Shown: positions 45,198 to 59,395 of the stretch, one piece after another
How the letters are laid out: every line of letters starts with the position of its first letter
Position numbering within the stretch: position 1 is the first letter of the stretch
IMG/VR virus record: IMGVR_UViG_3300036884_000265
Location: 1 to 59,395 of that record
Source of the DNA: a virus
Lineage: Duplodnaviria > Caudoviricetes
Length of the DNA: 59,395 bases
Strand: one strand, 5' to 3'
Program-made: the position numbers and the translations under genes
The notes under the pieces: model-generated
The model's input: the letters and a program-made list of their open reading frames with translations, nothing else
What the model was told of the DNA's origin: nothing
Database searches by the model: none

Positions 45198-45379
45198 TGC
45201 AAATCAAGTATGATGCAAAAATTGTAGCATTGAATGAAGTAAGTTTTTCGTGGAATCCAGATGACTCAAAAGCAGTGGAAGCACAAGTAACAAAAATAAT
45301 AAAACAGTTACGATTAACGATTGGAGATGTTGTTAAGGTAACACTTGAAGTAGGACCAAGTATTGAACTTAAGAATTAA
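45197..45379 (+). CDS. Hypothetical protein
   Basis: Coupled TAATG; 60 aa. Confidence 0.6.
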   Translation: MQIKYDAKIVALNEVSFSWNPDDSKAVEAQVTKIIKQLRLTIGDVVKVTLEVGPSIELKN

Positions 45380-45398
45380 ATTAAAAAGGAGGCAGCAA

Positions 45399-46055
45399 AT
45401 GAATAAAAGAATCGTAGTGATCGCAACAATCATGTTTTTGATGTTTGCACCAATGGCAATGGCGTGTGATATTGAAGCTCAATGTGAGGGACCCTGCGGC
45501 AAGGTAATTCAACCTGGTCAGCAAAGCCCTGTCACAGTCAGTCAGTCACAAAGTGAAAGCCTGGCTCAGGGACAGCAGTTTACATTAGCCTTGACAGGTG
45601 ATGAAAGAGATTTTCTCCCATCACCCGTGGTTATCCCTATTCAACCGGTTCCTATGCAGGGAGGAAGTCAAGAAAATTATACCCCTTATCTCCCCAAGTT
45701 TGCAGACCCTATGCTTCAACCGTTCAACTTCAGCACAGATGTAGTTGTAAAGCAGTTAGACATATTTAACGGAAAATGGTTGTTCGGCCTGTTTGGCAAC
45801 ATTACCCAGGATGAATTATGGGGCAAATTACTCAGCCTCCCTGGTAATTACAAAAGCTATCCTCAGGATAAAATAAGGATACAAGTCCAGGTAAGCTCGT
45901 CAAGCGTGGAGAATGGAATAGGTGGTGGTGGAAGCGGCGGGTCGTCGGTCATGAACGCCAGCAATGCAGTATCAGGATCAGCGTCCATATTACCTCATCA
46001 TACCAGATGGACAAAGGATGATACCTTTTTAATTCGCGTATTGCTCATTCAGTGA
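45399..46055 (+). CDS. Exported protein with signal peptide
   Basis: Start ATG 45399 (AGGAGG); MNKRIVVIATIMFLMFAPMAMA|C. Confidence 0.7.
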   Translation: MNKRIVVIATIMFLMFAPMAMACDIEAQCEGPCGKVIQPGQQSPVTVSQSQSESLAQGQQFTLALTGDERDFLPSPVVIPIQPVPMQGGSQENYTPYLPKFADPMLQPFNFSTDVVVKQLDIFNGKWLFGLFGNITQDELWGKLLSLPGNYKSYPQDKIRIQVQVSSSSVENGIGGGGSGGSSVMNASNAVSGSASILPHHTRWTKDDTFLIRVLLIQ

Positions 46056-46065
46056 GGAGGGGTAC

Positions 46066-46260
46066 ATGGCTAAGACACATATAATTTTGCATGTTGTTAT
46101 GGATTGGGAGTTGGGCAGGTCAGAACTCAATAATCTGTTTGACGACTCCACCATCCATCTGCCAAACGGACAAGATTTAAGAAACCCGCGAACATGAGAA
46201 CTGCCAGATATCATCGACTGTATGATGATAATACCAGAAGATATTTTAGTTGTTCAATAA
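46066..46260 (+). pseudogene. 64-codon gene with in-frame TGA at 46195-46197
   Basis: GAGGAGG RBS; MAKTHIILHVVMDWELGRSELNNLFDDSTIHLPNGQDLRNPRT*ELPDIIDCMMIIPEDILVVQ, ending at a TAA that abuts the next RBS. Confidence 0.5.
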
Positions 46261-46274
46261 AAGGAGAGTAAAAA

Positions 46275-46538
46275 ATGATAAAAATTATATTTGTAGCAAT
46301 CTTATATGTATTACTTACTATATCGTTCGTTAATGCTCAAATAATTCCATCGACACCTGCAACACATGCATTAACTCAGCCAACATTGGAACAGCTTACA
46401 ACTGAGCAAGATAGGGACTTAGCAAGGTGGCAAGTTATTCAATATCAGGCAAGGGACTTGCAAAATACAATTCAGGAAAGGGATGCTCAGATTAAGAAAT
46501 TGCAGGAAGCTAATAAACCTAAGACTGAAAAGAAGTAG
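46275..46538 (+). CDS. Exported coiled-coil protein
   Basis: Signal peptide MIKIIFVAILYVLLTISFVNA|Q; last gene of the rightward arm. Confidence 0.75.
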   Translation: MIKIIFVAILYVLLTISFVNAQIIPSTPATHALTQPTLEQLTTEQDRDLARWQVIQYQARDLQNTIQERDAQIKKLQEANKPKTEKK

Positions 46539-46546
46539 ATAATAAA

Positions 46547-46598
46547 TGGAGATTAGTGTAATTATATTTAAATACCGTAATAATTACGCTAATCTCCA
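46547..46598. terminator. 19-bp inverted repeat at the convergence of the arms, containing palindromic element copy 8 (core 46576-46588)
   Basis: tggagattagtgtaattat ... ataattacgctaatctcca (one G-U pair); the left arm is a half-copy of the element. Confidence 0.75.
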
Positions 46599-46623
46599 AT
46601 CCTCAAATAACCTACTTAAATTG

Positions 46624-46884: not shown

Positions 46885-46887
46885 GGC

Positions 46888-47142
46888 CTATTCCTTTTTA
46901 TCTACTACTTGTTTGTTTTCTTCTAACGTAGATTTCGTGATGTCTGAAGCCTGTACCATCGGCGTGGCCTGTTTGGTAACACCACCTGTGACATTCCAAT
47001 CCTTAGAAAAAATACCTAACAATGCGGTAAACATGGCGGCCCCTGAAAAGAATATAGCTTGATATTTAGGAAAAGCTTGGGAAAGGAATGTGCATACCGC
47101 AGCACACACACCAAAGATTGTTGTCCATTTACTCTTGTTCAT
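46888..47142 (-). CDS. Holin-like protein (2 TM)
   Basis: WTTIFG..., two hydrophobic segments, G.FSKD.NVTGG, charged tail. Confidence 0.65.
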   Translation of the reverse strand: MNKSKWTTIFGVCAAVCTFLSQAFPKYQAIFFSGAAMFTALLGIFSKDWNVTGGVTKQATPMVQASDITKSTLEENKQVVDKKE

Positions 47143-47558
47143 GGTGCCTCCATTATTTCAGTTACGTCTGTTCCGGGAACACACGAAGATGATGCGAACA
47201 GGTGGACCGCCTCATAAACGTAAGCCGCCCTTACCGGTGACATCCCATCTTCCATACATATATTATGTAAGGTCATATCAGCATAATCTTTATAATCTCT
47301 CGGTAAGATACCCATCCTGATTGCCTGATAAAGCACATCGTGAACAAGGGATCCGCGCATGAAGTCCTTTGTGTCGAAGGTGGGCCCACTTGGACCGTCC
47401 CACGCATAGCCAGCGATAATGAGTAATACGCCATCGGTCTTCAGAATGAAGAAACCGCCAGCGCAGGTCATATCCTTGAGACCTATATCGACAGAATAGT
47501 CCTCATGAAGTTGATATTTATATTTACGTTTTCTGTATCTTATCTTGTCACCAATCAT
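47139..47558 (-). CDS. DUF1353-family protein
   Basis: GYAWDGPSGPT.DT..FMRGSLVHDVLY...AD...C.EDGM...RA..VY.AV. Confidence 0.75.
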   Translation of the reverse strand: MIGDKIRYRKRKYKYQLHEDYSVDIGLKDMTCAGGFFILKTDGVLLIIAGYAWDGPSGPTFDTKDFMRGSLVHDVLYQAIRMGILPRDYKDYADMTLHNICMEDGMSPVRAAYVYEAVHLFASSSCVPGTDVTEIMEAP

Positions 47559-47561
47559 GGC

Positions 47562-47789
47562 CTATTTCCCTGTCGAGTTCAGAAGGCCAAGTAAGGCGTT
47601 AAGGGTGGCGGCATCGATTTTTTGCCCGTTGACTTTTATGCTTGCATTGCCCACCGTTGCCTCTGTGCTATCCGCTGTCGTGAATAGTCGGGTATAGCTG
47701 ACCGTTGTCCCATCTGCCGTCTGATAATGTAGAGATGCACATCCCGTGAGACATAAACAGATAATTCCTACTACGATAAATAATTTCAT
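47562..47789 (-). CDS. Lipoprotein (possible spanin component)
   Basis: Lipobox LTG|C after a hydrophobic leader. Confidence 0.75.
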   Translation of the reverse strand: MKLFIVVGIICLCLTGCASLHYQTADGTTVSYTRLFTTADSTEATVGNASIKVNGQKIDAATLNALLGLLNSTGK

Positions 47790-48226
47790 GTTGCCTCCTT
47801 AATATTGTCTACCCATCTATAACCTAACACATCCGACTCTTGAAAAAAAGATAGTTTTACGGCATCAGACTGATTACCGCCGACTAATTGTACCCATCCG
47901 CCCGGTGATCTTCGATATTTGAATATTCCAACATGACCGCTTGGAGGATTGCCACGCTTCAGAACAGTGATACATCCAGGGAAAGGATTGTCTATTTTAA
48001 CGCCCCAGTTTAACCAGGAACGTGCCATAGCGTTGTTTGTTCCCTTACCCCCTGCCTGTATGACTACCCAATTTGTAAACGCACTGCACCATGCGATTTC
48101 GTCACTGTTCATTGAAATACCGACAGTGCTGAGATATTCAAGTATTCTCTTTGTCGATTCCGGGCCGGGAGTTTCATGGACTCCTATTTCACCTTCTGCT
48201 ATTCTCAGTACGTCTTTTGGTTGCAT
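47786..48226 (-). CDS. Endolysin candidate, TIGR02594 (NlpC/P60-CHAP-like) peptidase
   Basis: EIGVHE.PG, DEIAWCSAF.NW, ARSWL.WG, GHVG, GGNQSD.V. Confidence 0.85.
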   Translation of the reverse strand: MQPKDVLRIAEGEIGVHETPGPESTKRILEYLSTVGISMNSDEIAWCSAFTNWVVIQAGGKGTNNAMARSWLNWGVKIDNPFPGCITVLKRGNPPSGHVGIFKYRRSPGGWVQLVGGNQSDAVKLSFFQESDVLGYRWVDNIKEAT

Positions 48227-48243
48227 TTATCGTCCCCTTTAAA

Positions 48244-48313
48244 GATGGGAGTTACACAGAGGTGTATTCCGATGCACAGCAGTACCATACATCTTTCCGC
48301 GTTCACTCCCATC
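48244..48313 (-). promoter_or_regulatory. Long structured RNA hairpin directly upstream of the endolysin RBS
   Basis: On the mRNA strand: nested stems gaugggagu/acucccauc, acgcgga/ucugugu and gauguaugg/cugugcauc, with several G-U pairs. Confidence 0.5.
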
Positions 48314-48782
48314 ACTTCTGACCTCCAAAAATAGCGATCCCGCCCTTCTCTCCGGTCTTGCCTTGTATCCCTTGTGCTCCGGTATTTCCCTTATTAAACG
48401 TTTTATTCTGTTCCATCTTTTTAAGCATTTTATTATTGCTACCGCTTACATCGTTATATTTCTGCTGAAAATCTTTCTGCTGTTCAACAACTGCTGACAT
48501 GCTTTTGGTAAGTGTAGCAAGGTCTGAATACACCTTTTCAGGTACACCTCTCGGCTGACTATTCATATAAATATTGGTAGCAATGAAAGTAACCAGACCC
48601 AGAACAATAGCTATAAGCATTTGGATAGTCCTGGCCGATATGGTTTGGATAAGTGAGTTAATACTTTCAGAAAGGTGTCCATATTTATCCTACAAAGCTT
48701 TTCTATCTTCCTTAGAATCGTTTATAAAATCTGCAATGTGGTCCCTATAATCTCTAAGATCATCTTTTTCATGGTCTGTCAT
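48312..48782 (-). CDS. Membrane-anchored lysis-cassette protein with collagen-like tail; in-frame TAG at codon 31
   Basis: GGAG RBS and ATG 48782; MTDHEKDDLRDYRDHIADFINDSKEDRKAL*DKYGHLSESINSLIQTISARTIQ reads in frame into track ORF 48620 (TM, coiled coil, GNTGAQGIQGKTGEKG). Confidence 0.6.
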
Positions 48783-48793
48783 TGTTTCTCCAC

Positions 48794-49231
48794 TTAATGT
48801 AGTCGTATGATTGCACTGATTATGGCAATTATTATGCCAGTAACTGAAACGGCCATTGCAAAATTAACAGAAGACCGTGAAGCCTTGCCTTCTAACAGTG
48901 CCTTACTTAATTCAAGTTGCCTAATCTGTTCATCATACTTAGCAAATTGAGATTCGATTTCTCCCTTCATAACAAATTTAGCACACTGTTCTTTGACCTG
49001 AGTATACTCAGTCCTATCAATAAATCTTGCCGTCTGATCTCTGAGGGCATCTCTAAATTCGTTCATGGAATTTAAGCGAATATCCATTTTTTCTTCTGCC
49101 TTATCAAGGGCAATTTTATTCATCTTGAAGTGCAGGTCTACCCTTATGTCCATGTCCTGAATCTTGTGCATGATAAATTCTTTTAAAGACACTTCATCTT
49201 TAAAATCAAAACCGTTATCCTTTTCACTCAT
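48794..49231 (-). CDS. Coiled-coil protein with C-terminal TM (lysis accessory)
   Basis: ALDKAE..MD.RL.SMNEFR..L.DQ; C-terminal hydrophobic anchor. Confidence 0.7.
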   Translation of the reverse strand: MSEKDNGFDFKDEVSLKEFIMHKIQDMDIRVDLHFKMNKIALDKAEEKMDIRLNSMNEFRDALRDQTARFIDRTEYTQVKEQCAKFVMKGEIESQFAKYDEQIRQLELSKALLEGKASRSSVNFAMAVSVTGIIIAIISAIIRLH

Positions 49232-49252
49232 TAGAACCTCTCCACTGTTAAT

Positions 49253-49396
49253 TTAGCCTCGTCCTACAAACATGAGCAACATTATCACACTCATGATGAA
49301 TACTGATACCCATAATGGAACTTTGCTTGGAACCGTTATTGCCAATAATACGCAAATAAATGCTGCTACTGATAGAATGATTAAAACCATATTCAT
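49253..49396 (-). CDS. Small 2-TM membrane protein (holin-like)
   Basis: Start ATG 49396 (AAGGAGG); two hydrophobic helices around KVPLW. Confidence 0.7.
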   Translation of the reverse strand: MNMVLIILSVAAFICVLLAITVPSKVPLWVSVFIMSVIMLLMFVGRG

Positions 49397-49446
49397 GCGT
49401 TGCCTCCTTTTAATTATTTTGAACTTACCAAATTGCAATTCCTAAA

Positions 49447-50877
49447 TTAGAATTTACATCCACTGCGTGTTCCACCTGAAAAAGTTGTTGTTGTTCCTGC
49501 GGAAGTTCCTCCTGTACCAACAAGAGCTACATTTGCGCCCATGTCTGCACCCGCTTTACCGGTTCCAACGCAAGGAGCTTTTATCAGGAAATCGTTGAGC
49601 GTGTTGAGGTTTCCGCTTCCATTCGTGAAACAGGACGTTGCTGAATTCAAGCTGTGTGTATCAGGATGACCACCTCCTGACAATTCGCTCGACGCCGCCC
49701 ACGTTGCCAGCGTAGAATAGTATGAACCCGATGGACCTCTGACCATGAAGTTTGTATTACCAAACGAGTTATAGTCTTGTTCCGTAAGAACTGAACCCGA
49801 AGTGTGTCTGACCACTGAACTCCCATAATCTGTGGGAGCGTGAGGCACTTGCAGGGCATTATTGTAGAGATGATGTCCTGTGCCGTCTGCGATAATCAAA
49901 TATGCCTCGCCAGTCGTGTAAGTGGAATACATTGAATTGTTATAAATATTCTCAGTGGCAAAAGTCTGACCGTCCGATATTTCGTTATATACCCCTGTCC
50001 CTGTAAAATTAACGATCACGTTTTGATATATCAGTAAGTTGGCTGGAGACCATATATTATATGCCGATGCATAAATGCCGGTGTCGGTATCGTGGATATA
50101 GTTATAACTCACCGTACAGTTTTGACAGTCTCTCTTGAAATAGATTGTATTAGTATTGTTGGAAAACTCATTATTTTTAACGAGTGTATTCGCCGTGTCG
50201 TAGGTCTTGATTGCCGAGGTGTTATGATAATTGTTGGTCTCCATATAATGATAAAAGGTATTGTTTTGAACAGTCGTATCAGATACGCACTCTATTCTCA
50301 AACCCTCCACATTGTCAGTGTTTGTCTGTACTGTAGACCCGCCACTGAAATAGCAATTCTGAATAGTAACGTGCGTTGAAATCGGGACATAAGTCGAACA
50401 AAGGTCGTTGCTTCCTAAAACCATACGAGCAGTATTCAGACCTCCGTCTACCTGAAGAGTAAATCCATCGAAGACAATATAGGTCTTATCATAGGTCCCA
50501 AGCATCGTTTCTCCTGATTGTCCACTAACGCCTTCTCCCCCTGCAGCAGTACCGTTGAGAATGGGAGTTTCTCCTGTGTACGCCCGAAAGGTTATTGGGC
50601 TTCCTGCTGTTCCTGAATGTTGAGGCTCATAATATCCGTGGTATCCGTCTGCGGATTGACTCAGGTAGTTGTATCCATTTTTTGTAGGAACCGTGTATGT
50701 ACCTCCACGAAAGAGCCATATATCACCCGCCACTGCGTTTGACATAGCATAGGCAATGGTACAGGGAGAACCGATTGAACAGGTTGAACCGGAACCGGCG
50801 TTGGAAACATAATAAGTGGCTGAGAAAACCCATACAGGAAACAAAACAATGAACAATATTAAGATATATTTTTTCAT
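49447..50877 (-). CDS. Signal-peptide-bearing right-handed beta-helix (pectin-lyase-like) protein; putative depolymerase/tailspike
   Basis: MKKYILILFIVLFPVWVFS|ATYYVS; AGD....RGGTY; SGT..PITFRAY.GE.P; repeated I.NN.F/I.N coils; GAD.GA end. Confidence 0.8.
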   Translation of the reverse strand: MKKYILILFIVLFPVWVFSATYYVSNAGSGSTCSIGSPCTIAYAMSNAVAGDIWLFRGGTYTVPTKNGYNYLSQSADGYHGYYEPQHSGTAGSPITFRAYTGETPILNGTAAGGEGVSGQSGETMLGTYDKTYIVFDGFTLQVDGGLNTARMVLGSNDLCSTYVPISTHVTIQNCYFSGGSTVQTNTDNVEGLRIECVSDTTVQNNTFYHYMETNNYHNTSAIKTYDTANTLVKNNEFSNNTNTIYFKRDCQNCTVSYNYIHDTDTGIYASAYNIWSPANLLIYQNVIVNFTGTGVYNEISDGQTFATENIYNNSMYSTYTTGEAYLIIADGTGHHLYNNALQVPHAPTDYGSSVVRHTSGSVLTEQDYNSFGNTNFMVRGPSGSYYSTLATWAASSELSGGGHPDTHSLNSATSCFTNGSGNLNTLNDFLIKAPCVGTGKAGADMGANVALVGTGGTSAGTTTTFSGGTRSGCKF

Positions 50878-51881
50878 GGATTAGCCGCCTTAAATCCTAT
50901 TATAAGAGTTTGCCAACTACCGGATGCTACCCTTGTTGTGGTCATAGATGTAGCACCGGCAGTGGTTTGAATATGGTCAAACATATAATGATAATGGTCA
51001 TTTTGATTTACTCTAATGGTGTAACCGGCTCCAGGAGTTGGTGTACCCGCCGTTGCCTCATCTCCACACATGACTATTATCAGTGAATTGTTATAGCTTG
51101 TAACAATTGTCTCCGATGAAGGATTGGCCGATGAAGTATCCGCTCCCAAGGGTGTACCGTCTAACGTACCAGCAGCGGTTAAGCCGGAATATTCAGCCAT
51201 GCCCCATCCAAAATCTCCTCCTCCGTTTGTAACCGATACGGCATTGCTTCCAGCGGTTGCATCAGGACACCATGCAACCTTCGAATAAACATCGGTTGTA
51301 TGAATGACTGAGGAGTATTGCCATGAAACACCACAACCTCCAGAAAGTGTAGTTGTCGCAAGATCAACGCCTGACGACATACCGGCGATTAAGGCGTTGT
51401 GAACCGTTACCCCTGTTATCGTTAAAGCTGAATTGGCGTAGACCGACTGAACGTGACCAGCGATGAAGGCAGGGGCGACCGAACCGCTACTCGGTGTGGC
51501 CGTTACCTCACTACTACACGTCTGCCCGGCCAAATCAGTTCCGCATAATCTATAATAATAAGGGGTTCCATTTGTACGTCCGGTATGTACATAAGCCGTG
51601 CCAGGGAATGATGCTACAACGAGCGTGGCATTACTTATATTGTTAGCGTACAGATTGTATGTTGCGCGAGATGTGGTGTCCCAGTAAAGTACATTTGTTA
51701 AAGCTCCCACGTCACCGGAAGTTAGGGCAATAGTGACTTGAGCGGCCCCTGCTGTAGCTGAAATGACTGGGGAAGTAGGAGGTGTTCCTACTACCTTTCC
51801 AATTTGCATAAGCATTTGTGCTTGACAGGAAATACCCCATCCAATCAAAATCAGTAAAATAAATATAAGTATTTTTCTCAT
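50874..51881 (-). CDS. Signal-peptide-bearing protein with FN3 domain and C-terminal beta domain
   Basis: MRKILIFILLILIGWGISCQA|Q; P..P.ISATAG..QV.I...LYW...YVHTG.TNGTPYYYR...SSEV.ATP (FN3). Confidence 0.75.
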   Translation of the reverse strand: MRKILIFILLILIGWGISCQAQMLMQIGKVVGTPPTSPVISATAGAAQVTIALTSGDVGALTNVLYWDTTSRATYNLYANNISNATLVVASFPGTAYVHTGRTNGTPYYYRLCGTDLAGQTCSSEVTATPSSGSVAPAFIAGHVQSVYANSALTITGVTVHNALIAGMSSGVDLATTTLSGGCGVSWQYSSVIHTTDVYSKVAWCPDATAGSNAVSVTNGGGDFGWGMAEYSGLTAAGTLDGTPLGADTSSANPSSETIVTSYNNSLIIVMCGDEATAGTPTPGAGYTIRVNQNDHYHYMFDHIQTTAGATSMTTTRVASGSWQTLIIGFKAANP

Positions 51882-51884
51882 ATC

Positions 51885-54800
51885 TTAGCTCCCTGCTGAA
51901 GTTCCTGATAAAGTGGTACATTTCAAGAGCCAGGTTGAAGTATTGGTCTTAAATGAGAAACAACTTAAGCTACTTGATATAGGTTGAGCAGTAAACGTAG
52001 CATATCTTTGAGCAGTACTGCTACCATCCAAGTATAGACTACTTGCACCAGCATCCAATCTAAACCCACCAGTACTTGTCAAAGCTGTGCCCTGAATCAT
52101 AACGAAGTTTATCCCTGCTACTAAAGCTGGTGCCGTAACTGTAACAACACCACTGCTTGTTGGTGACTGACCATAGTTACCTACAATGGCATTACTCAAC
52201 TGTGCAGCTGTAGGAGTACAATTTGCTGAGCAGTCAATAGCTTGAGGAGTTACTGAAGCTGTTGTAAGAACAGGAGAAGTACTCATTACAGGTGAACCAG
52301 TTCCTGTTGAAGCTGTCCATACTGGAATTGTTGTAACTCCTGCGCCTACTAATTGATAATTTGCTGAACCTGCTGCTAAATAACTAAGTGCTGCTCCTGA
52401 ACCATTTGACATTAAGAATGAACCAACTGCACCTGGAGCCAATGCAGCAATTGTGTTTGCAGTAGCTGCATGAAGTAACCCACCCTGAACATATGTATCA
52501 GCATAAGTTGATGTAGAATCTGTATATTTACCTGCAACTGTTGTAGAAGTTGGAAATTTTCCTGCTGCTGTATCGGTTGCAGTAAGTAAGGGTATATATC
52601 CTGTTACTGCTATATCAGGAATATTAACAATCCTTGCTGCTGCTGAAGTACCAGTAATCTGAAAATTGTTTGTTGCTGCATTTCCTAAGTAAAATGAAGC
52701 AAATGGGGCAGCTGCTGTTCCAATAGTTCCTGTCCCTGCGGTTGCTGCATGAATATCTGTTGTTATTGCTGCAGTAGTTAATGCAGGTGATGTCATTGTT
52801 TGAACACCAGTAAATGAGTTTGCTGCATCAGTTCTTGCAACCGTTATTGCTGCATCAGGAAATGTAATTATTCTTGCTGTTGCACCACCAGTTGTAAATG
52901 TAAGTGGAGCAGTTGCACCTGCTAATGGTATTGAGTATCTTGTAGTTGATGGACTAAGATAAAATGATGTCCCATCAAACTCCATTGCTCCAGCTGCTGC
53001 TGTTGTTAAGTTTGTTCCTGATTGAAAATATAATGGGCCAGCTCCTACTCCAATTGCCCCAACCTTAAGTGTTAATGCAGTTGTTAGTGTACCGCCAGTA
53101 AAACCACCAGCAACAGACCAAATTGGTACATGAGTTGAAGGTGAAATTGTTAATACATAAGAATCAGTTCCAGCAGCCAAGCGAGTCCAGGCATTTGCTG
53201 AAGATGCATATAATAAATCTCCCGTTGCTTGGGATGCAATTACCATTGCAGCTGGTGATCCTGTTGTTGCAAGCAACGAAGAAGTTGTTGAAGGGAATGT
53301 ATATGTTTGTGCTGCTGTTCCTGAGAAAGTATATCCTGCATAACCCGGTGCTGTCGTAACACCACCACTAAGTAAAGGTTGACCTGCTGCAACATCGGCA
53401 AGACGAGTAATTGCAGTACCTGAAGTAGCATAAAATATATCTCCAACTGCCTGAGATGCTAAGGCAATTGGTGCAGTTAATGTACCAAGAGTACCGGAAG
53501 TTGGAAATGTAACACTCGTATTTCCCCCAAGTGTCCATGCCATTGAGTAATTGCCACCGGCAAATGTTATCGTATTAAGATCATTATTAGCAATACCTGT
53601 CCCACCCTTTGACCCAGTAACAATTGGTAAATCAGATGCTGCAATTGCCCTGAATGAAGGATCTGCTGTTGAATTAGCAAATAAGGGATATGTTGGATTA
53701 GCTACATTTGCTACGACTACTGGAGCAGTTGATGCTCCTTCCATAACAACAATACCATGAGTAGTAAGTGCAGCTGTTGAAGATATAGTATTACTTGATG
53801 AAACATAAGGTAATCCACCATTTGTCATTGTATTAATACTAATTTGATTAGCATAACTTGATGACAAAGCAGGAACAACCCAAGTCATTGGTGTTCCATA
53901 AGCTACAACTTGACCTGTTGTTGGAGTAGCATTAGGATATTGCAGCGTATATGCTGAAGCCATTGAACCAGTTGGACCTTCAAAAATAACTCCAAATGCT
54001 TGAGTTGAAGAATCATTATACAACTGAGATGTTCCAGCAGTTCCACTTGTTTTTGCTGATGCAAAACCTTTTGCGGTTATGACATAAGCCCCAACATTCC
54101 AATCTGCAGTTAATGGAATTGTGCCATCTGCTTTTAAATCACCAGTACCTGCAGGAGCAGCCCAAGAAATTGTTCCACTTGTATTAGCTAAATAATATGT
54201 ACCCGTGGCTGAAGTAATTGCACTTAAAACATTTGCTGAATTAGCTGCAAATATCGAACCTGCTGCAATTGTATCAGGCATTGTTAATGTAGTTTCAAGA
54301 TAATTTGTTCCATTTGCCCTAATTAATTTCCCTGTTGTTGCAGCTGTTGGCCAAGTTGCTGAAGACCAAGCAGGATTTGTTGCACCCATTTGAAGCATTT
54401 TGCCCGTTGACCCTGCAGCAAGAACTGAAAATGCATCAGTACCTGTACCATAAATAAGTGAACCTGAAGTAATTGTTAAACCAGCAAGGGCAGTTAATGT
54501 CCCATCAGATGTTTGATAAGTTGAAGGATTAACATTACAACCGATTAATGTACCTGAAGCAGTATAATTACACAAATCACCATCAGTAAATGTTCCATTT
54601 AAAATAAGTGTTTTACCTGCTCCAATTGTTAATGAACCTGCTGCACCAGCAATAAGTGAACCTGTCCCATTTGAGATTGTTAAGGCATTTGTTGTAGCAT
54701 CATTAATCGTAAATGTTGACCACTGAGGAGCAGTATCTCCAGCATTCATTCTTAATACATTATAAGCTGCTCCTTTAGCAAGTCTTCCATAAGATGAAGC

Positions 54801-56300
54801 ACCACGATATGCCATATCTCCAGCAGCATCAGAAGTAAAAACTAAGTCACTTGCAGTTGTAAATTGAGTATTACATGAAATCAATGTACCTGAAGTAGTA
54901 TACTTGCAATAATACCCATCAGTCATTGTACCAAGAATTGCACCTGCATTATCCGTAGCTTGTCCTGTCCCTGTAAACTTAACAAGTGAATTTGCTAACG
55001 GAGTTGATGGTCCGGTTACTGGCCTTGTAATTGTTGTTTGATAACCTGTAATTGCACCTGCTCCACCAAATGCTAAAACACCAATTGAGGAAATTGTAGC
55101 AAAATCAGCACCTGTTCCTATTTTAAGAAATTGAGTTCCATCTGCAGCTAAACCTAAGCCTAAACGCGCAAATTGAGGAGTTGCTGTTGTTCGTATATCC
55201 TGAATAGGATTAATGGTATAAGTTGAATTAGCTCCTCCATCAGTTCCTGCTGCCATTGAAGTTCCCATTGTAAGAACACGTTCACTTGTTAATGTCCCAT
55301 CTGTACCCAAGGTGATATAAGATGCATCAACTGGAGCAGCAGTTGCCCCAACTGAGTTCCATCCTGAGTCATAAAATTTAATTGCTTTAGCTGCATGATC
55401 GTAAGTTATTGGATAACCCGCACTTGGAACATTATCTACCCAAGCAGGTAATTCAAATCCATATCTTAATCCTGTTGCAGGTGAGGCTGCACTTAAATTC
55501 ATTAAGTATGTAGCACCTGCAGTTAAGTTTGGAATATCCCCACTTACTAATGCAGGTAACTGAGCATGGGGTAAGGTACCTGTTGTTAAATCACTTGCTG
55601 AAACCGTTACATTTGAACTTAAGGCATGACCATTAACTGTTGTTGAACTCAATGCAAAGTCAGTTGAAGCATGACTTGCTGCACTTAAAATTGTTGTTCC
55701 TCCACCATACTTGCTTACTGTAACTCCTCCACCAAATGCAATAGCTGCATCACCACTCATTGTAATTGGAGCATAAGCAGTACCACCAGTATTACCAACT
55801 AAAATTTGACCTGATGCTGGAGCAGTATTCGGAACAACACTTGCCTTAGTCTGAGCATCATTTGTCACTGCTGATAAACCAACCATTGTTGAAGTTATAC
55901 CACCAACAGTTCCTGTAAATGTTGGATTTGCTAAGGTTGCATAACTTGCAATTGTGGCAAAAGCACCAGTACCAAAGGAAACACCACCAGACTTAGCACA
56001 AGTAATTGCACCAGAAGCAACAACTAAGGTACAATCCCCGGACATTGTAAATCCAGCAAATGCAGTACCTCCGGAATTGTACTGAATTTGATTTGCAGTA
56101 CCTCCAGGATTTGCTGCAGTCCCTGAAACAACTGCACATGCATATTTATGTGTTGTTGTTGAGTATGTTAAGACATACCCATTAGTACTACAAGTAGGAA
56201 GTCCTGCTCCCAAAATAAACGGAGGAGGAACCTGAGCATTTAGTAATGAGCAGGTAAAAAATAATGTAATAAATGTTATAAGTAATATAAGCTTTTTCAT
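51885..56300 (-). CDS. Signal-peptide-bearing long tail-fibre-like protein
   Basis: MKKLILLITFITLFFTCSLLNA|Q; 1471 aa, T/A/G/S-rich; repeated GDL.YA.....TRLA.G units, TVNGHALSSNV, LP.A.LP, GTGSPV.STSP.L fibre motifs. Confidence 0.8.
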   Translation of the reverse strand: MKKLILLITFITLFFTCSLLNAQVPPPFILGAGLPTCSTNGYVLTYSTTTHKYACAVVSGTAANPGGTANQIQYNSGGTAFAGFTMSGDCTLVVASGAITCAKSGGVSFGTGAFATIASYATLANPTFTGTVGGITSTMVGLSAVTNDAQTKASVVPNTAPASGQILVGNTGGTAYAPITMSGDAAIAFGGGVTVSKYGGGTTILSAASHASTDFALSSTTVNGHALSSNVTVSASDLTTGTLPHAQLPALVSGDIPNLTAGATYLMNLSAASPATGLRYGFELPAWVDNVPSAGYPITYDHAAKAIKFYDSGWNSVGATAAPVDASYITLGTDGTLTSERVLTMGTSMAAGTDGGANSTYTINPIQDIRTTATPQFARLGLGLAADGTQFLKIGTGADFATISSIGVLAFGGAGAITGYQTTITRPVTGPSTPLANSLVKFTGTGQATDNAGAILGTMTDGYYCKYTTSGTLISCNTQFTTASDLVFTSDAAGDMAYRGASSYGRLAKGAAYNVLRMNAGDTAPQWSTFTINDATTNALTISNGTGSLIAGAAGSLTIGAGKTLILNGTFTDGDLCNYTASGTLIGCNVNPSTYQTSDGTLTALAGLTITSGSLIYGTGTDAFSVLAAGSTGKMLQMGATNPAWSSATWPTAATTGKLIRANGTNYLETTLTMPDTIAAGSIFAANSANVLSAITSATGTYYLANTSGTISWAAPAGTGDLKADGTIPLTADWNVGAYVITAKGFASAKTSGTAGTSQLYNDSSTQAFGVIFEGPTGSMASAYTLQYPNATPTTGQVVAYGTPMTWVVPALSSSYANQISINTMTNGGLPYVSSSNTISSTAALTTHGIVVMEGASTAPVVVANVANPTYPLFANSTADPSFRAIAASDLPIVTGSKGGTGIANNDLNTITFAGGNYSMAWTLGGNTSVTFPTSGTLGTLTAPIALASQAVGDIFYATSGTAITRLADVAAGQPLLSGGVTTAPGYAGYTFSGTAAQTYTFPSTTSSLLATTGSPAAMVIASQATGDLLYASSANAWTRLAAGTDSYVLTISPSTHVPIWSVAGGFTGGTLTTALTLKVGAIGVGAGPLYFQSGTNLTTAAAGAMEFDGTSFYLSPSTTRYSIPLAGATAPLTFTTGGATARIITFPDAAITVARTDAANSFTGVQTMTSPALTTAAITTDIHAATAGTGTIGTAAAPFASFYLGNAATNNFQITGTSAAARIVNIPDIAVTGYIPLLTATDTAAGKFPTSTTVAGKYTDSTSTYADTYVQGGLLHAATANTIAALAPGAVGSFLMSNGSGAALSYLAAGSANYQLVGAGVTTIPVWTASTGTGSPVMSTSPVLTTASVTPQAIDCSANCTPTAAQLSNAIVGNYGQSPTSSGVVTVTAPALVAGINFVMIQGTALTSTGGFRLDAGASSLYLDGSSTAQRYATFTAQPISSSLSCFSFKTNTSTWLLKCTTLSGTSAGS

Positions 56301-56318
56301 TTCACTCTCCGTTTTATA

Positions 56319-56774
56319 TTAACGTCTCTGGTTCCATATCCAAGCTCTTATTGTAAATATTGCTCCATGCACAATATTACTTGTTATTACTGGAGTCAAT
56401 GTACCATTAATCCATCCACTTATTGCAGGAGCAACTCTATTTGCTGTTGCCCCAAGCATTGTTGATCCGGTACTGCTTAGAACATCAGCACTTGATTCTG
56501 ATGATAATAATGTAAATCCACTTGACGCAGTTGGTGAAGGGCTTCCTGGAGTTGTATCAACTGAATAAACCCACCCCCTAAATGTAGGTGAAGGAGTGAT
56601 TGTAGTTGGAAATGTTCCATCACCTGAATTACCTGTACATACCCATGTAACACTTGAAATAGCATCAAGATCTTGATGAGTCATTACACACGAACCAGCA
56701 AGTGCATGTGCAAATAACGGAAAGAATACCGTAATTATTACGATGTTTAATAAAATGCATAAATACCTTTTCAT
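56319..56774 (-). CDS. Signal-peptide-bearing small beta protein
   Basis: MKRYLCILLNIVIITVFFPLFAHA|L; one Cys pair in the mature part. Confidence 0.75.
   Translation of the reverse strand: MKRYLCILLNIVIITVFFPLFAHALAGSCVMTHQDLDAISSVTWVCTGNSGDGTFPTTITPSPTFRGWVYSVDTTPGSPSPTASSGFTLLSSESSADVLSSTGSTMLGATANRVAPAISGWINGTLTPVITSNIVHGAIFTIRAWIWNQRR
56721..56750 (-). repeat. Dispersed palindromic element copy 9 (core 56730-56742), inside a coding sequence
   Basis: aagaatacCGTAATTATTACGatgtttaa encodes LNIVIITVF of the signal peptide. Confidence 0.85.
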
Positions 56775-56799
56775 AAGTCCTCCATTAAGTTAAATTAAA

Positions 56800-58710
56800 C
56801 TAAAAACCTCTTTCTATAGAAATTCTTGAGTTTCCATTAATTGCTGTCCATATAGTTGTATCCTCCGTAAGTGTGAAGTCCTTTGAATATATTTGTGTGC
56901 GAAGTCCAGGATACCCTTCCCAAAGAAAAACCTTTTTTAAATCCACTCCCATATAATCATATAAGGTTGTCAATGTTGGATATGATCCACCTGAATGAGT
57001 AATTAACTCACCCGAATCATATCTTCCATTTAAGGCATAATTAATAACACTTGTTATTGTAGTTGCACCTGCAAGGGCTTCCCCAACAAAAACAACTTGT
57101 GTAGGTGTTACCCAATTGTTATAATATCCTGAATACATAATAGCCTGAAGAATATTATAATAATACAATGTATCTGGACTTAAGGCCGTAGGTGGAGTAA
57201 ATGCAGTTGTATAACGTGCATAAGGAGTATACCTAAACTCATCATAATATCCACCATCAGCACTAAATCCCAAGCCTGTTTCAATACCTAAGTAAAATAA
57301 TCCAGTTACATTATAAATAGAAAGAGAAGATGTTACTGCAATATCCTGAACTCCATCTACATAAATTTTATATGTAAGTCCACTCCAGACAATGGCAATG
57401 TGATACCAATTATCTTTAAGTAATGTTGCAGTTCCAGTATTACCATTTGCAATATCTTGTGAATTACCAGCAGAAGACATAAATATCTCTAAATGGTTAA
57501 ATGAGTTTCTTGTCAATTGTAATGAACGCAATGATTCACCATATACAACAGGATAATTATTTCCACTTGTTTGTGTTGGTCTGTAATAAAATTCTATTAC
57601 CCAGGGATGAGAACTCCATAAATAAGGTAATGTAGTATTCCAAACCGGTCCGGCTACTGGATATATATAAGGAGTATATGCAGATGCAGTTCCATATTTA
57701 GATTGAGCAGTAGAAATAACAGCATAATCAGTTGTTCCTGTCCACACATTTCCGTAAGTATCCGTGAAAGTTGTTGCCCCATTTGTACCATCAAAATTTG
57801 CAAGAACAGCAGCATTTTGGCCAGCTCCCGTTGGAGCAACAACTGAATATGATGGTTTATAAGGAGTGCTTCCAAGTGTAATTGCTCCAGTACCTGAATC
57901 TCTACTTGCATAAAGGTAATTGTTTGCATAAGCCTGAACTGCTGGCCATGCAGTATCTGCAACAATTGCCCCAACATAATCTGATCTTCCAGTTACTTCA
58001 AATCCAGCTGCAAAAGACACATACACAGGAGTTGTTGTTGCTGCAAGGGCAGGTAATAAACCAGTCCCAGTTGATATGAAATTAGGATGTCCATTTGCAT
58101 CAACTGCTGAATTTAATACAGTTTGTCTTGTACTATTTAAGGAAGCTGAATTTTCACCAGCAGGTCCTGTTGGCCCCTGTGGTCCTTGTGGACCAGTTAC
58201 GGAATCACCTTTATCTCCTTTAGGGCCAGCAGGACCTGATGCTACCCATATAACCCAAGGAGTTAATGCTGAACCTGAGCCACTTGTATTTGTTACATTA
58301 ACAACAAGTATGCCTGTCGTATAATTATAACTTGTAATTGTACCAAGCATATAATCACTAACATCAGTTGCATAAGTAATTTCAACAACCATTCCGGTAA
58401 TGAAGGATAGACCGGCTTCAACAGTTAATGTTTTTGTACCTGTACCTATTGTCAGCATTGATGTTGAACTTCCATAAATGTTTCCAAGGTAAGGTAGGTT
58501 AATCCAGTGACTTAAACCATCACCAATTTTAAGTCGGTTAGCATCATACTCAAAACCTGGTTCACCTTGTAATAAAACTGGATTGTATCGTGTCCAGTTA
58601 CTTGCAGTATCTCTTCTTAATTGATACTGATTAAATAAGGTATCTCCATTTACAACTGTTGAGATGAATAACATCAAGAATATAAATAGCCCACAAATAA
58701 GTTTTTTCAA
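56800..58710 (-). CDS. Signal-peptide-bearing fibre: Mtd_N/hyaluronidase-N-like domain, collagen-like repeat, LamG/ConA-like lectin domain
   Basis: MKKLICGLFIFLMLFISTVVNG|D; QLRRDTASNW...NPVL..GE.G.E.D...LKIGDG..W..LPY; GPAGPKGDKG..GPQGPQGPTGPAG; F.G.NG.T.F.D...WYHIA.V....YVDG...GYYDEFR. The TTG start overlaps the ATP-grasp stop. Confidence 0.85.
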   Translation of the reverse strand: MKKLICGLFIFLMLFISTVVNGDTLFNQYQLRRDTASNWTRYNPVLLQGEPGFEYDANRLKIGDGLSHWINLPYLGNIYGSSTSMLTIGTGTKTLTVEAGLSFITGMVVEITYATDVSDYMLGTITSYNYTTGILVVNVTNTSGSGSALTPWVIWVASGPAGPKGDKGDSVTGPQGPQGPTGPAGENSASLNSTRQTVLNSAVDANGHPNFISTGTGLLPALAATTTPVYVSFAAGFEVTGRSDYVGAIVADTAWPAVQAYANNYLYASRDSGTGAITLGSTPYKPSYSVVAPTGAGQNAAVLANFDGTNGATTFTDTYGNVWTGTTDYAVISTAQSKYGTASAYTPYIYPVAGPVWNTTLPYLWSSHPWVIEFYYRPTQTSGNNYPVVYGESLRSLQLTRNSFNHLEIFMSSAGNSQDIANGNTGTATLLKDNWYHIAIVWSGLTYKIYVDGVQDIAVTSSLSIYNVTGLFYLGIETGLGFSADGGYYDEFRYTPYARYTTAFTPPTALSPDTLYYYNILQAIMYSGYYNNWVTPTQVVFVGEALAGATTITSVINYALNGRYDSGELITHSGGSYPTLTTLYDYMGVDLKKVFLWEGYPGLRTQIYSKDFTLTEDTTIWTAINGNSRISIERGF

Positions 58711-59395
58711 AGTGTACCCCCTAAACCAAATTTTTCTCCTTCCTTAATCATTTCTTTCAACTCCTCAAATGAATTTTTGTTATAAGATTTATGTGGGCAC
58801 TTAAAATTTTCAGCTGCCTTTAAACATTCTTCTTCAGCCTCATCCTGCGTATCTCCTAATCCAACTACTTTAACAATTGTTGAACCATTTTTCTTAAATG
58901 GAATATGCTGAAATATACCTTCAACTTTACAAGCTGTTCTCAATTTAACACTAAGCCAATCCTTAGGATCAAACTCAAATGGAGTAGGTTCATCTGCACA
59001 ATCAGCAGAATCAACACTTAATTCAGCTCCAAATTTTGTGCGAAATTCAGGTTCAACAACTTCCCCATGAGCAATTCCTTGGACAATTTTAGGAAAGTTT
59101 TTATATTCTGATGTAATAACCCCAGCAGGTGGATTACCAAATCTTGAACATATATCACTGAAGTGAGGAACTTTATTCTTTCCTTGTCTAAATTCAGTTG
59201 ATATTGCCCCATCAACTTCACAACCTAAATAAACTGGAGCCATAGCTTCATGTATTGTCTTAAGTGGTTTAATAATTTCATTCATATTAACTACTCGACA
59301 TAAGTAAGAATCACCTTTATGTTCCCAGCCATATAAGCCCATTTTAAAAGGAATACCCTTACAAATAAAAACATCATCTCCCGGCTCACTTCCCT
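58707..59395 (-). CDS. PurD/GARS-like ATP-grasp ligase, 3' part (joins 1..711)
   Basis: In-frame continuation across the terminal overlap; G.IS.EFR, D.CSRFGNPP, VVGLGDT.DEA... Confidence 0.75.
   Translation of the reverse strand, partial: GSEPGDDVFICKGIPFKMGLYGWEHKGDSYLCRVVNMNEIIKPLKTIHEAMAPVYLGCEVDGAISTEFRQGKNKVPHFSDICSRFGNPPAGVITSEYKNFPKIVQGIAHGEVVEPEFRTKFGAELSVDSADCADEPTPFEFDPKDWLSVKLRTACKVEGIFQHIPFKKNGSTIVKVVGLGDTQDEAEEECLKAAENFKCPHKSYNKNSFEELKEMIKEGEKFGLGGTL
59292..59395. repeat. Terminal direct repeat (right copy)
   Basis: Matches 1-104 with one mismatch (59296 C vs 5 T). Confidence 0.95.

What the first reader, a model, noticed from the sequence alone, without database searches (positions are those of the whole stretch)
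49447..58710. All five fibre / receptor-binding genes encode Sec-type signal peptides: a possible exported tail-fibre system
Seen: five consecutive late genes each begin with a basic n-region, a hydrophobic h-region and a small-residue cleavage motif (MKKLICG..VVNG|D, MKRYLC..AHA|L, MKKLILL..LNA|Q, MRKILIF..CQA|Q, MKKYILI..VFS|A). Their mature parts are typical virion-fibre modules: Mtd_N-like, collagen, LamG; 1471-aa fibre repeats; FN3; beta-helix. They sit in the tail-fibre slot between the ejection genes and the lysis cassette, and I see no fibre gene without a signal peptide. Established: caudovirus fibres normally fold and attach in the cytoplasm without signal peptides. Inference: these fibres are exported, mature in the periplasm or outside, and join virions at or after lysis; alternatively they act as host-surface adhesins or receptor blockers.
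Basis: partly seen in the sequence, partly recalled or inferred. Interest (0 to 1): 0.9.

Follow-up and report, generated by a model that had tools for sequence, protein, structure and literature searches.

The report
Tail-fibre-like phage proteins with export signals
Five neighbouring late genes of an uncultured short-tailed phage encode fibre-like and sugar-cleaving-like proteins that all begin with a classic bacterial export signal, which suggests that this phage sends its host-recognition proteins out of the cytoplasm instead of keeping them beside the assembling particles.

Summary
The window is a whole, circularly assembled podovirus genome of about 59.3 kb. Genes P1 to P5 (49447-58710, minus strand) each start with K/R, a hydrophobic core and a small-residue cleavage motif, behind a Shine-Dalgarno site. 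My rule flags 8 of 88 ORFs, including all five.

The leaders are conserved features:
- P2, P4 and P5 homologues nearly all carry them.
- A sister phage keeps them on four of the five genes.
- At least nine other Mtd_N fibre-type proteins carry one.
- Close cysteine pairs occur in leader-bearing versions and are absent from leaderless fibre homologues, which fits folding outside the cytoplasm.

- The sister phage's P1 orthologue has no leader.
- P5 belongs to a secreted beta-helix family found in cellular genomes.
- P4, P5 and the lysis genes form a compositionally foreign block.

Best reading (0.45): a late, Sec-exported cassette of receptor-binding-like and glycan-active proteins that acts in or on the envelope. 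The bolder reading, fibres that join virions after export, stays open (about 0.3), mainly because of P1. I found no paper describing this. No signal-peptide predictor, host or proteome was available.

The parts
56800..58710 (-). P1: leader (residues 1-22, nt 58645-58710), then Mtd_N fibre N-domain (30-65), collagen-like G-X-Y run (about 159-186) and Laminin_G_3 lectin-like domain (366-496). An alternative ATG lies at codon 13.
   Evidence: The start TTG overlaps the upstream stop and has AGGGGG 6 nt upstream. The orthologue in L001 lacks the 20-residue leader. A 72%-identical relative, P0073, has its own leader, MKKFVLGLLFCLVFILSSVFTYGA. The mature part has no Cys.
56319..56774 (-). P2: leader (residues 1-24, nt 56703-56774) and a small jelly-roll beta-sandwich. 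Cys29 and Cys46 are invariant.
   Evidence: All 3 homologues have leaders. AF2 model at pLDDT 75: the two Cys sit opposite each other in the hairpin E28-36/E39-47. Atlas look-alike clusters are viral.
51885..56300 (-). P3: leader (residues 1-22, nt 56235-56300), conserved mature N-terminus QVPPPFILG, and a 1450-aa Thr/Ser/Ala/Gly-rich fibre with 12 Cys in 6 close pairs.
   Evidence: At Cys90/Cys101 the leader-bearing L001 protein also has Cys/Cys, whereas three leaderless fibre homologues have G and V/I.
50874..51881 (-). P4: leader (residues 1-21, nt 51819-51881), a conserved FN3-like N-domain (about 30-130, Cys113/Cys122) and a variable C-domain.
   Evidence: Eight homologues all have leaders. 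Their local matches, 61-87% identical over 26-47% of P4, cover the N-domain, and their C-termini are unrelated. Both Cys are kept in six of the eight homologues and both are replaced in two. The AF2 N-domain is a beta-sandwich at pLDDT 60-76 and the rest is unmodelled.
49447..50877 (-). P5: leader (residues 1-19, nt 50821-50877) followed directly by ATYYVS and a right-handed beta-helix. 10 Cys.
47139..49438 (-). Lysis cassette directly downstream: 61-aa two-TM holin-like protein, 145-aa C-terminal-TM protein, 102-aa N-terminal-TM protein, TIGR02594 endolysin (47786-48226), lipoprotein (47562-47789) and a phrog_1158 protein.
   Evidence: It shares the high GC3 (0.40) of P4 and P5.
45363..46538 (+). 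Two further leader-bearing genes on the opposite strand: 45363-46055 (leader from an internal Met) and 46275-46538.
   Evidence: GC3 is 0.43 and 0.31. L001 has a counterpart of the first.

Best explanation
P1 to P5 are late genes of a lytic-type podovirus. They are transcribed and translated with the virion genes, but each is made as a precursor with a Sec-type, signal-peptidase-I-type leader.

Proposed mechanism:
1. The precursors cross the inner membrane before lysis.
2. The leader is cut after the small-residue motif.
3. The proteins fold outside the cytoplasm, where P2, P3, P4 and probably P5 gain disulfide staples.

Together they form an exchangeable 'exported specificity cassette' of receptor-binding-like and glycan-active proteins, placed between the virion genes and the lysis genes. 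I think it most likely that P2 to P5 work as free extracytoplasmic proteins on the glycans or receptors of the infected cell's envelope and its debris. Possible effects are destroying or masking receptors, helping release, keeping progeny from sticking and shutting out rivals.

P1 is a true tail-fibre orthologue that has taken on the same leader. It is the one part for which loading on the particle outside the cytoplasm has to be considered.

Shown by sequence: the leaders, their conservation, the homologies and the cysteine patterns. Inferred: export, cleavage, disulfides and function.
For: Leaders
- 5 of 5 block genes are flagged against 3 of the 83 other ORFs. All five have SD sites.
- No minus-strand terminator-like site lies in the block, and promoter-like sites are at chance level: 43 found against 43.9 expected.

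Conservation of the leader while its sequence drifts
- P2: 3 of 3 homologues.
- P4: 8 of 8 homologues.
- P5: my rule flags 43 of 68 family members, including P5 itself. By eye nearly all the rest have one behind a longer or uncharged start, or are truncated.
- Sister phage L001: 4 of 5 genes.

P1's leader is not an ORF-calling artefact
- P0073 (72% identical) and P0077, P0150, P0152, P0153, P0155, P0197, P0200 and P0219 have leaders in front of Mtd_N, among the best 150 of 19,510 hits.
- L050, a syntenic relative, and L047 have them too.

Folding outside the cytoplasm
- P3's 12 Cys form six local pairs, and P2's two Cys are invariant.
- The C90/C101 pair is present in both leader-bearing proteins and absent from 3 of 3 leaderless fibre homologues.
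- P4's pair is kept together (six homologues and P4) or lost together (two homologues).
- In the models, both the P2 and the P4 pairs sit as cross-strand neighbours.

Accessory, envelope-directed nature
- The P5 family lives in cellular genomes as secreted proteins. It has no tblastn hit in 50,697 GenBank phage records.
- P4, P5, the lysis genes and two more leader-bearing genes share GC3 of 0.31-0.43, against 0.14-0.23 for P1-P3 and the rest of the genome.
- In L001 the fibre P1 is cytoplasmic while the other four are not.
- In other viral contigs the P5-like gene carries a leader in 9 of 19 loci, and in 8 of those 9 it sits in a run of 2-5 or more leader-bearing genes. Two cultured relatives of one such phage (RAP44, Versailles) have no such run between the tail protein and the lysis genes.
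Against: - No signal-peptide predictor, no proteome and no host were available. Export and cleavage are inferred only.
- If P1 to P5 are not on the virion, this genome has no recognisable receptor-binding protein. PHROGs and Pfam find no other fibre among the 25 other ORFs searched. Several of those ORFs have no hit at all, so this is weak.
- In L050 and L047 the leader-bearing Mtd_N gene is the only fibre-like gene seen between the giant internal protein and the lysis genes.
- P1 and P3 share modules with genuine fibres.
- P3 and P4 show the conserved N-end and swapped C-end pattern that is typical of virion-anchored receptor-binding proteins.
- The five genes take 15.6% of the genome, which is a lot for accessory functions.
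- A public gene call starts P1 at ATG codon 13 (P0072, 624 aa).
Confidence: 0.45

Rival explanations
1. Exported virion fibres. All five are the phage's receptor-binding proteins. They are exported, oxidatively folded in the periplasm, and attached to finished fibreless particles when holin lesions mix cytoplasm and periplasm, or just after lysis.
For: - P1 is orthologous to a leaderless fibre. After the predicted cut, its new N-terminus (DTLF...) lines up with residues 3-6 of that fibre.
- In SU10 the free fibre N-termini make the docking contacts on adaptor and nozzle (PMC9509320, passages read). This phage has an SU10-type adaptor.
- No other fibre gene was found.
- The leader-bearing Mtd_N gene is the only fibre-like gene in that slot in L047 and L050.
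- P3 and P4 evolve in the modular way of receptor-binding proteins.
- The genes are translationally coupled to late genes.
- Fibre attachment being a last assembly step that works by simple mixing is recalled from T4, P22 and T7 work and was not tested here.
Against: - No case or mechanism for tailed phages was found in eight of the nine answered literature searches; the ninth sought the SU10 structure paper only.
- In L001, P1 stays in the cytoplasm while the other four are exported, so the block is not one co-assembling unit.
- P5 is a captured secreted-enzyme family.
- Comparable leader-bearing runs look like insertions that are absent from cultured relatives.
Confidence: 0.3
2. The hydrophobic N-termini are not cleaved export signals. 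Either they are uncleaved signal-anchors that hold the proteins in the inner membrane, or, for P1, they are not translated at all because the true start is ATG codon 13.
For: - P1 has a TTG start, and an in-frame ATG lies 12 codons downstream. A public gene call uses that ATG.
- P1 has no Cys in its mature part, and its L001 orthologue is leaderless.
- My rule cannot tell a signal-anchor from a cleaved leader.
Against: - No SD lies before the ATG: the nearest GGG is 15 nt upstream. A good SD lies before the TTG, at the same overlapping start position that L001 uses.
- Relatives with ATG-initiated MKK leaders exist.
- All leaders in the window, L001, and the P2, P4 and P5 families end in small residues at -1/-3 and are 19-24 residues long.
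Confidence: 0.12
3. Artefact: a chimeric assembly that joins a phage to bacterial or other-phage DNA encoding secreted proteins.
For: The region 45.3-51.9 kb has about twice the GC3 of the rest.
Against: - The ends overlap by 104 bp with 1 mismatch and close an ORF of the length seen in L001.
- L001 is collinear through the fibre block, the lysis genes and the opposite-strand genes.
- The exact P2, P4 and P5 proteins were seen on 8, 5 and 5 contigs.
- P1-P3 have native GC3.
Confidence: 0.03

Closest known systems
Leaderless Mtd_N-type tail fibres (Pfam PF18454; the Bordetella phage BPP-1 Mtd namesake is recalled; cyanophage 'structural proteins' and S-CBS1 'tail fiber' are; the L001 orthologue is)
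   Same: P1 has the same N-domain, and overall fibre homology with L001 (41% over the full length). It sits in the same slot after the ejection genes.
   Different: P1 carries a 20-22-residue Sec-type leader in front of the domain. About 75 of the best 150 database representatives have the domain within 16 residues of Met1.
Phage-encoded exported envelope proteins next to tail or lysis genes: T5 Llp, phi80/N15 Cor, lambda Lom and Bor (recalled, not tested)
   Same: They are phage proteins with signal peptides that act in the host envelope. Llp-type proteins block the phage's own receptor, which protects progeny and excludes rivals. They occupy a similar place in the genome.
   Different: Those are single small lipoproteins or outer-membrane proteins, and many are expressed early or from the prophage. 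Here there are five large, late, fibre-like or beta-helix proteins of up to 1471 aa with SPase-I-type sites.
Filamentous-phage adsorption protein g3p (recalled)
   Same: It is a receptor-binding virion protein made with a Sec signal peptide and folded with disulfides in the periplasm.
   Different: Inoviruses assemble at the membrane and g3p has a C-terminal membrane anchor. This is a tailed phage with cytoplasmic capsid assembly, and the five proteins have no C-terminal anchor.
Secreted right-handed beta-helix proteins of bacteria (PF13229 Beta_helix; homologues in MAGs)
   Same: P5 shares a full-length 29-49% identity, the leader, and the immediate 'TYYVS..GS' start with them.
   Different: P5 is encoded in a phage late operon. 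No enzymatic activity or catalytic residues are known for this family.
Sec-exported and SAR endolysins (recalled), and diffusible phage depolymerases (PMC10521650, passage read)
   Same: They are late phage proteins that reach the envelope or surroundings and act there rather than on the particle.
   Different: Endolysins cut peptidoglycan. Known free depolymerases are released by lysis or from alternative starts, not reported with Sec leaders in what I could search.

Membership tests
Sec / signal peptidase I signal peptide | Positively charged n-region | tested here: met
   KK, KR, KK, RK and KK at residues 2-3 of P1-P5.
Sec / signal peptidase I signal peptide | Uncharged hydrophobic h-region of about 10-17 residues | tested here: met
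   Best 10-residue Kyte-Doolittle means are 3.0-4.05.
Sec / signal peptidase I signal peptide | Small residues at -3 and -1, total length about 18-30 | tested here: met
   By eye the sites are VNG|D, AHA|L, LNA|Q, CQA|Q and VFS|A. The rule, which reports the first permissible site, gives the same cut for P1 and P5 and cuts 2-5 residues earlier for P2-P4. Homologues end in FGA|G, SFA|G, SMA|G, VQA and the like.
Sec / signal peptidase I signal peptide | Call by a trained predictor (SignalP or similar), and experimental export and cleavage | not testable with these tools
   No predictor was on hand. No proteome or host is known.
Lipoprotein (SPase II) signal | Lipobox L-[AS]-[GA]-C at the cut | tested here: not met
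   P1-P5 have no lipobox. The Cys in the P3 and P4 leaders is not conserved in homologues. Only 47562-47789 has LTG|C.
Caudovirus tail fibre / receptor-binding protein | Homology to known fibre or spike domains | tested here: met
   P1: Mtd_N and 13 PHROG families in the 'tail' category, seven of them named tail fiber protein. P3: modules shared with leaderless fibres. P5: Beta_helix, plus a weak tail-spike PHROG hit at E 0.001. P2 and P4 have none.
Caudovirus tail fibre / receptor-binding protein | Conserved N-terminal part with exchangeable C-terminal part | tested here: met
   P4 family. P3 against the L001 300-aa protein. P1 against L001 has a swapped central domain.
Caudovirus tail fibre / receptor-binding protein | Made without a signal peptide and attached in the cytoplasm | tested here: not met
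   All five have leaders.
Caudovirus tail fibre / receptor-binding protein | Present in purified virions | not testable with these tools
   This is an uncultured phage. There are no P3 or P5 relatives in GenBank phages.
Receptor-blocking / superinfection-exclusion exported proteins (Llp, Cor type) | Small lipoprotein or outer-membrane protein that binds the phage's own receptor | tested here: not met
   P1-P5 are 151-1471 aa and are not lipoproteins. Receptor binding was not tested. The functional analogy remains possible.
Secreted beta-helix family of P5 | Leader, then N-terminal cap 'TYYVS..GS..W/C', then PF13229 repeats over the full length | tested here: met
   67 homologues with E-values from about 4e-4 down to 1e-115. 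For the N-termini.

The most novel reading that the evidence does not exclude
A tailed phage matures its receptor-binding proteins outside the cytoplasm. Fibres and spikes are exported by Sec, trimmed by signal peptidase, disulfide-stapled in the periplasm, and loaded onto finished fibreless particles in the interval between holin-made membrane lesions and outer-membrane rupture, or just after it. The leader can be gained or lost on the same fibre between sister phages because fibre attachment is the last, self-contained assembly step.
Probability: 0.3. Interest if true: 0.9.

Novelty: new variant of a known kind. Interest (0 to 1): 0.68.

Why it matters
Textbook caudovirus assembly keeps every virion part in the cytoplasm. 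Annotation pipelines and host-range predictors treat 'tail fibre' and 'secreted protein' as exclusive labels.

Here the same fibre modules occur with and without a Sec leader, even between sister phages. Whole runs of leader-bearing fibre-like genes recur in unrelated uncultured phages.

If these proteins act on the envelope, phages commonly export copies of recognition or depolymerase modules. That would be a late 'receptor-clearing' function comparable to a viral neuraminidase. If they join virions, a new assembly route exists.

Either way the finding gives concrete test objects: orthologue pairs with and without the leader, and cysteine pairs that track the leader. It also flags a class of genes that receptor-binding-protein prediction and phage engineering would mishandle.

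Tried and rejected
- Complex prediction of mature P2 with the mature N-terminus of P3 gave no answer (score 0.02). I do not count it either way.
- The AF2 model of P4 was poor (mean pLDDT 41; the C-domain unmodelled), so I made no fold search with it.
- Foldseek of the P2 model against PDB gave 0 matches at E <= 0.001. The best were CBM86 and phage cement proteins at TM 0.3-0.48. I draw only 'jelly-roll sandwich' from this.
- PDB sequence searches of P4 and of the ATP-grasp-like protein gave 0 hits.
- The metagenome scan and the viral scan with the P2 alignment found only the L001 contig again. The P4 alignment found nothing in IMG/VR.
- P3 and P5 gave no tblastn hit in GenBank phages. BLAST's low-complexity filter may hide P3.
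- I looked for a cultured phage with a leader-bearing Mtd_N fibre. Cellulophaga phiST gp030 and cyanophage S-RIM4 are leaderless.
- The host was not found: no tRNA genes, and only distant portal relatives, at most 38% identical, in Proteobacteria phages. The TIGR02594 endolysin and a lipoprotein hint at a diderm host.
- I rejected dual-start expression of P1 (TTG exported form, ATG-13 cytoplasmic form) as a general answer, because P0073 and L050 have no internal start in their leaders.
- Literature: nine answered searches (one search was a format error). sought the SU10 structure paper; the other eight gave no paper on Sec leaders on tailed-phage fibres. [quoted passage not shown] PMC5723332 and PMC9144972 (passages read) were not relevant. 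Supplements were closed and not consulted.

Full report
**What the window is**

The window is the whole record. Its ends overlap by 104 bp with one mismatch, so it is a circularly assembled genome of about 59.3 kb.

The minus strand carries a podovirus late operon:
- terminase, 22972-24642
- portal, 19790-22126
- major capsid protein, 16208-17320
- an SU10-type adaptor, 13154-13852
- a nozzle-like phrog_511 protein, 10940-13138
- several unknown proteins
- a 645-aa and a 1431-aa ejection-type protein

After these come a 91-aa gene and a gene of about 431 aa that spans the ends and resembles phage ATP-grasp clusters. Then follow P1 to P5 and a lysis cassette: a TIGR02594 endolysin, small membrane proteins and a lipoprotein.

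The plus strand holds a replication module: a UDG-PolA fusion, ParB-methylase, AAA_24 and DUF3987. The nearest cultured portals are at most 38% identical and come from Erwinia, Klebsiella, Ralstonia and Pseudomonas podoviruses. There are no tRNA genes, and the host is unknown.

**The observation**

Each has an SD-like site 4-7 nt upstream. P1's TTG overlaps the stop of the ATP-grasp-like gene, and P5's ATG overlaps the stop of P4. No minus-strand terminator-like site interrupts the block.

A rule of my own flags 8 of 88 ORFs. The rule asks for K/R early, an uncharged hydrophobic core, small residues at -1 and -3, and a length of 15-32. The eight are the five block genes, the lipoprotein, 46275-46538(+) and one likely spurious antisense ORF. 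Structural core proteins are not flagged.

Around 50 leaderless Mtd_N fibre genes in other viral contigs, only 7 of 447 neighbour ORFs are flagged. Five in a row is therefore not chance. This rule is not SignalP, and it cannot separate a cleaved leader from a signal-anchor.

**Are the leaders selected features?**

Yes.
- The three P2 homologues all have leaders of different sequence, followed by a conserved mature start with two invariant cysteines.
- Eight P4 homologues all have leaders. Each is followed by the N-domain, which their 61-87%-identical local matches cover, and then by unrelated C-domains.
- Of 68 members of the P5 family, including P5 itself, my rule flags 43. By eye almost all the others also show a leader, placed behind a longer start or lacking K/R, or they are truncated. 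The leader is always followed at once by (A/G)TYYVS.
- The sister phage L001 is 88% identical in the upstream gene and collinear through the lysis genes and the opposite-strand genes. It has leaders on its P2, on a 300-aa P3-like protein (mature start GAPPPFIMG against QVPPPFILG here), on a 253-aa P4-like protein and on a P5-like protein.

**P1 is the critical case**

In L001 the orthologue (41% identical over the full length) starts MSGTIFETIKMRRDT at an ATGA overlap. That is the same position as the window's TTGA. The window has 20 extra residues, which make up the hydrophobic leader.

One public gene call starts P1 at ATG codon 13 (P0072). However, that ATG has no SD, while the TTG does.

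A search of 1.84 billion representatives with P1 residues 1-120 found a 72%-identical relative with its own ATG-initiated leader, MKKFVLGLLFCLVFILSSVFTYGA. It also found eight further Mtd_N proteins with leaders among the best 150 hits. About 75 of the 150 have Mtd_N within 16 residues of Met1. The ranking favours leader-bearing hits because the query includes the leader.

Among 80 IMG/VR loci with Mtd_N genes, two carry a leader: L050 and L047.
- L050 is a syntenic relative. Its order is a 2044-aa protein, a 90-aa protein, a 428-aa ATP-grasp-like protein, a leader-bearing 416-aa Mtd_N fibre, and then a leader-bearing 251-aa protein. Identities to the window's proteins are 33-44%.
- In L047 a leader-bearing Mtd_N gene is the only gene between a 2593-aa protein and lysis-type genes.

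Leader plus Mtd_N is thus a recurrent architecture, gained or lost between close relatives.

**An independent sign of export**

Mature P1 has no cysteine. P2 has two. P3 has twelve, arranged as six local pairs, three of them with identical C-x10-C spacing. P4 has five and P5 has ten.

In the fibre module that P3 shares with other phages, the two leader-bearing proteins have Cys at both positions of one pair. The three leaderless fibres have Gly and Val/Ile there. In the P4 family the pair C113/C122 is either kept (six homologues and P4) or replaced at both positions (two homologues).

In the AF2 models, both the P2 pair and the P4 pair fall on directly opposed positions of a beta-hairpin. The P4 model is weak.

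Paired cysteines that track the leader fit oxidative folding outside the cytoplasm. The samples are small.

**What the mature proteins are**

- P1 is a fibre with Mtd_N, a short collagen-like run and a LamG-type lectin domain.
- P2 is a small jelly-roll sandwich. Its look-alike clusters are viral.
- P3 is a long fibre. It shares 35-56% identical stretches with leaderless tail-fibre genes in six viral contigs, one of them (L006) from a phage with the same replication module.
- P4 has an FN3-like N-domain and a variable head.
- P5 is a right-handed beta-helix. Its relatives are secreted proteins in cellular contexts of Nitrospirae, Opitutales, Moraniibacteriota and Terriglobia MAGs. In Moraniibacteriota they lie in tandem, beside genes that by my reading of their first residues resemble sugar-nucleotide enzymes. 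I ran no family search on those neighbours. P5 has no tblastn hit in 50,697 GenBank phage records.

**Wider pattern**

P5-like genes occur in 19 IMG/VR loci (L020 and L021 carry the same sequence). In 9 of them the gene has a leader (L012, L014-L018, L020, L021, L026). In 8 of those 9 it lies in a run of two to five or more consecutive leader-bearing genes. In L017 the run holds at least seven, including a 1505-aa protein, and is followed by an endolysin.

In L011, L019, L022, L028 and L029 the same domain starts directly at Met1, so both forms exist in phages.

The L026 type is related to Bacteroidota siphoviruses. Two cultured relatives, RAP44 and Versailles, have no such run between the large tail protein and the lysis genes. 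There, the run looks like an accessory insertion.

**Composition**

P1-P3 have GC3 of 0.14-0.18, like the rest of the genome (0.20-0.23). Their higher total GC comes from the second codon position, that is, from amino-acid content.

P4 (0.36), P5 (0.41), the lysis genes (0.40) and the two opposite-strand leader-bearing genes (0.43 and 0.31) form one foreign-looking block from about 45.3 to 51.9 kb. P4 and P5 therefore travel with the lysis and envelope end of the genome.

**Weighing the readings**

I take export of the five proteins as likely: about 0.85 for P2-P5 and about 0.65 for P1. What they do afterwards is open.

Points in favour of an envelope-directed accessory cassette:
- P5's ancestry in secreted proteins of cellular organisms
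- the composition block shared with the lysis genes
- the split of compartments in L001
- the insertion-like runs in other phages
- the recalled precedents of Llp, Cor, Lom and Bor

Points in favour of exported virion fibres:
- P1's orthology to a leaderless fibre, and the way its predicted mature end matches that fibre's N-terminus
- the absence of any other recognisable receptor-binding protein here and in L047 and L050
- the receptor-binding-protein-like modular evolution of P3 and P4
- the size of the investment, 15.6% of the genome

In SU10 the fibre N-termini make the docking contacts (PMC9509320, passages read). A cut that recreates a free N-terminus would therefore be compatible with docking.

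I put 0.45 on the accessory cassette, with P1 left unresolved, 0.30 on exported virion fibres, 0.12 on uncleaved or untranslated leaders and 0.03 on an assembly artefact. The rest is unassigned.

**Novelty**

Of the nine answered literature searches, eight looked for a description of Sec leaders on tailed-phage fibres or of runs of exported fibre-like genes and found none; only retrieved the SU10 structure paper. One paper states the opposite expectation for phage DGR targets (PMC6199706, passage read). The library lacks most subscription journals, and supplements were closed, so absence from print is not proven.

I class the finding as a new variant of known kinds (exported phage envelope proteins; receptor-binding modules). 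It would become categorically new if the proteins prove to be loaded on virions outside the cytoplasm.

Noticed in passing
window 1-104 and 59292-59395: The two ends are the same 104 bp with one mismatch at position 5. Removing one copy closes a minus-strand ORF of about 431 aa (1-711 plus 58707-59395). It matches the 430-aa gene of L001 and resembles phage ATP-grasp ('biotin carboxylase' / GARS_A) clusters by language-model features only. Pfam, PHROGs, NCBIfam and PDB give nothing.
   Followed up: partly
window 9233-10630 (-): A protein inside the structural module has a PLOD-type glycosyltransferase domain (Pfam E 1.7e-14), a weak 2OG-Fe(II) oxygenase PHROG hit and 12 Cys, and no leader. P1 carries G-X-Y repeats with lysines (GPKGDKGD), and the 102-aa lysis-region protein 48312-48620 ends in a collagen-like run. 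This could be a phage collagen-modifying enzyme.
   Followed up: no
window about 45300-51900: A block with GC3 of 0.31-0.43 against 0.14-0.23 elsewhere. It comprises P4, P5, the whole lysis cassette and two opposite-strand leader-bearing genes. It looks like one recently acquired envelope and lysis module.
   Followed up: partly
window 45363-46055 (+) and 46275-46538 (+): Two more proteins with signal-peptide-like starts lie at the end of the early/middle operon. The first has its leader from an internal Met, and its mature part may start with Cys. L001 has a counterpart of the first (L130 3665-4363). No family hits.
   Followed up: no
protein P0223 (301 aa, from a 1457-nt contig): The C-terminal two thirds of P4 recur at 93% identity behind a quite different, Cys-rich N-terminal part. 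This suggests a recent domain swap. The start of that gene call may be truncated.
   Followed up: no
L017 1475-13717; also L012, L014, L015, L016, L020/L021, L026: Unrelated viral contigs carry runs of 2 to at least 7 consecutive genes with signal-peptide-like starts. The runs sit between tail genes and lysis genes and include beta-helix, LamG-like and 800-1500-aa proteins. One of these contigs (L026) is related to Bacteroidota siphoviruses by its tail protein; most of the others have leaders ending in AQ, SQ or GQ. Some run proteins carry C-terminal matches to 'minor tail protein' PHROGs.
   Followed up: partly
L050 (IMG/VR contig of 145,243 bp): A syntenic relative of this 59-kb phage's fibre region sits in a contig 2.5 times as long. 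It may be a concatemer, a misassembly or a larger relative.
   Followed up: no
window 41016-43406 (+) and 39153-40493 (+): There is a fusion of a uracil-DNA-glycosylase-superfamily domain with 3'-5' exonuclease and family A DNA polymerase. A second fusion joins a ParB N-terminal domain to an N6/N4 DNA methylase.
   Followed up: no
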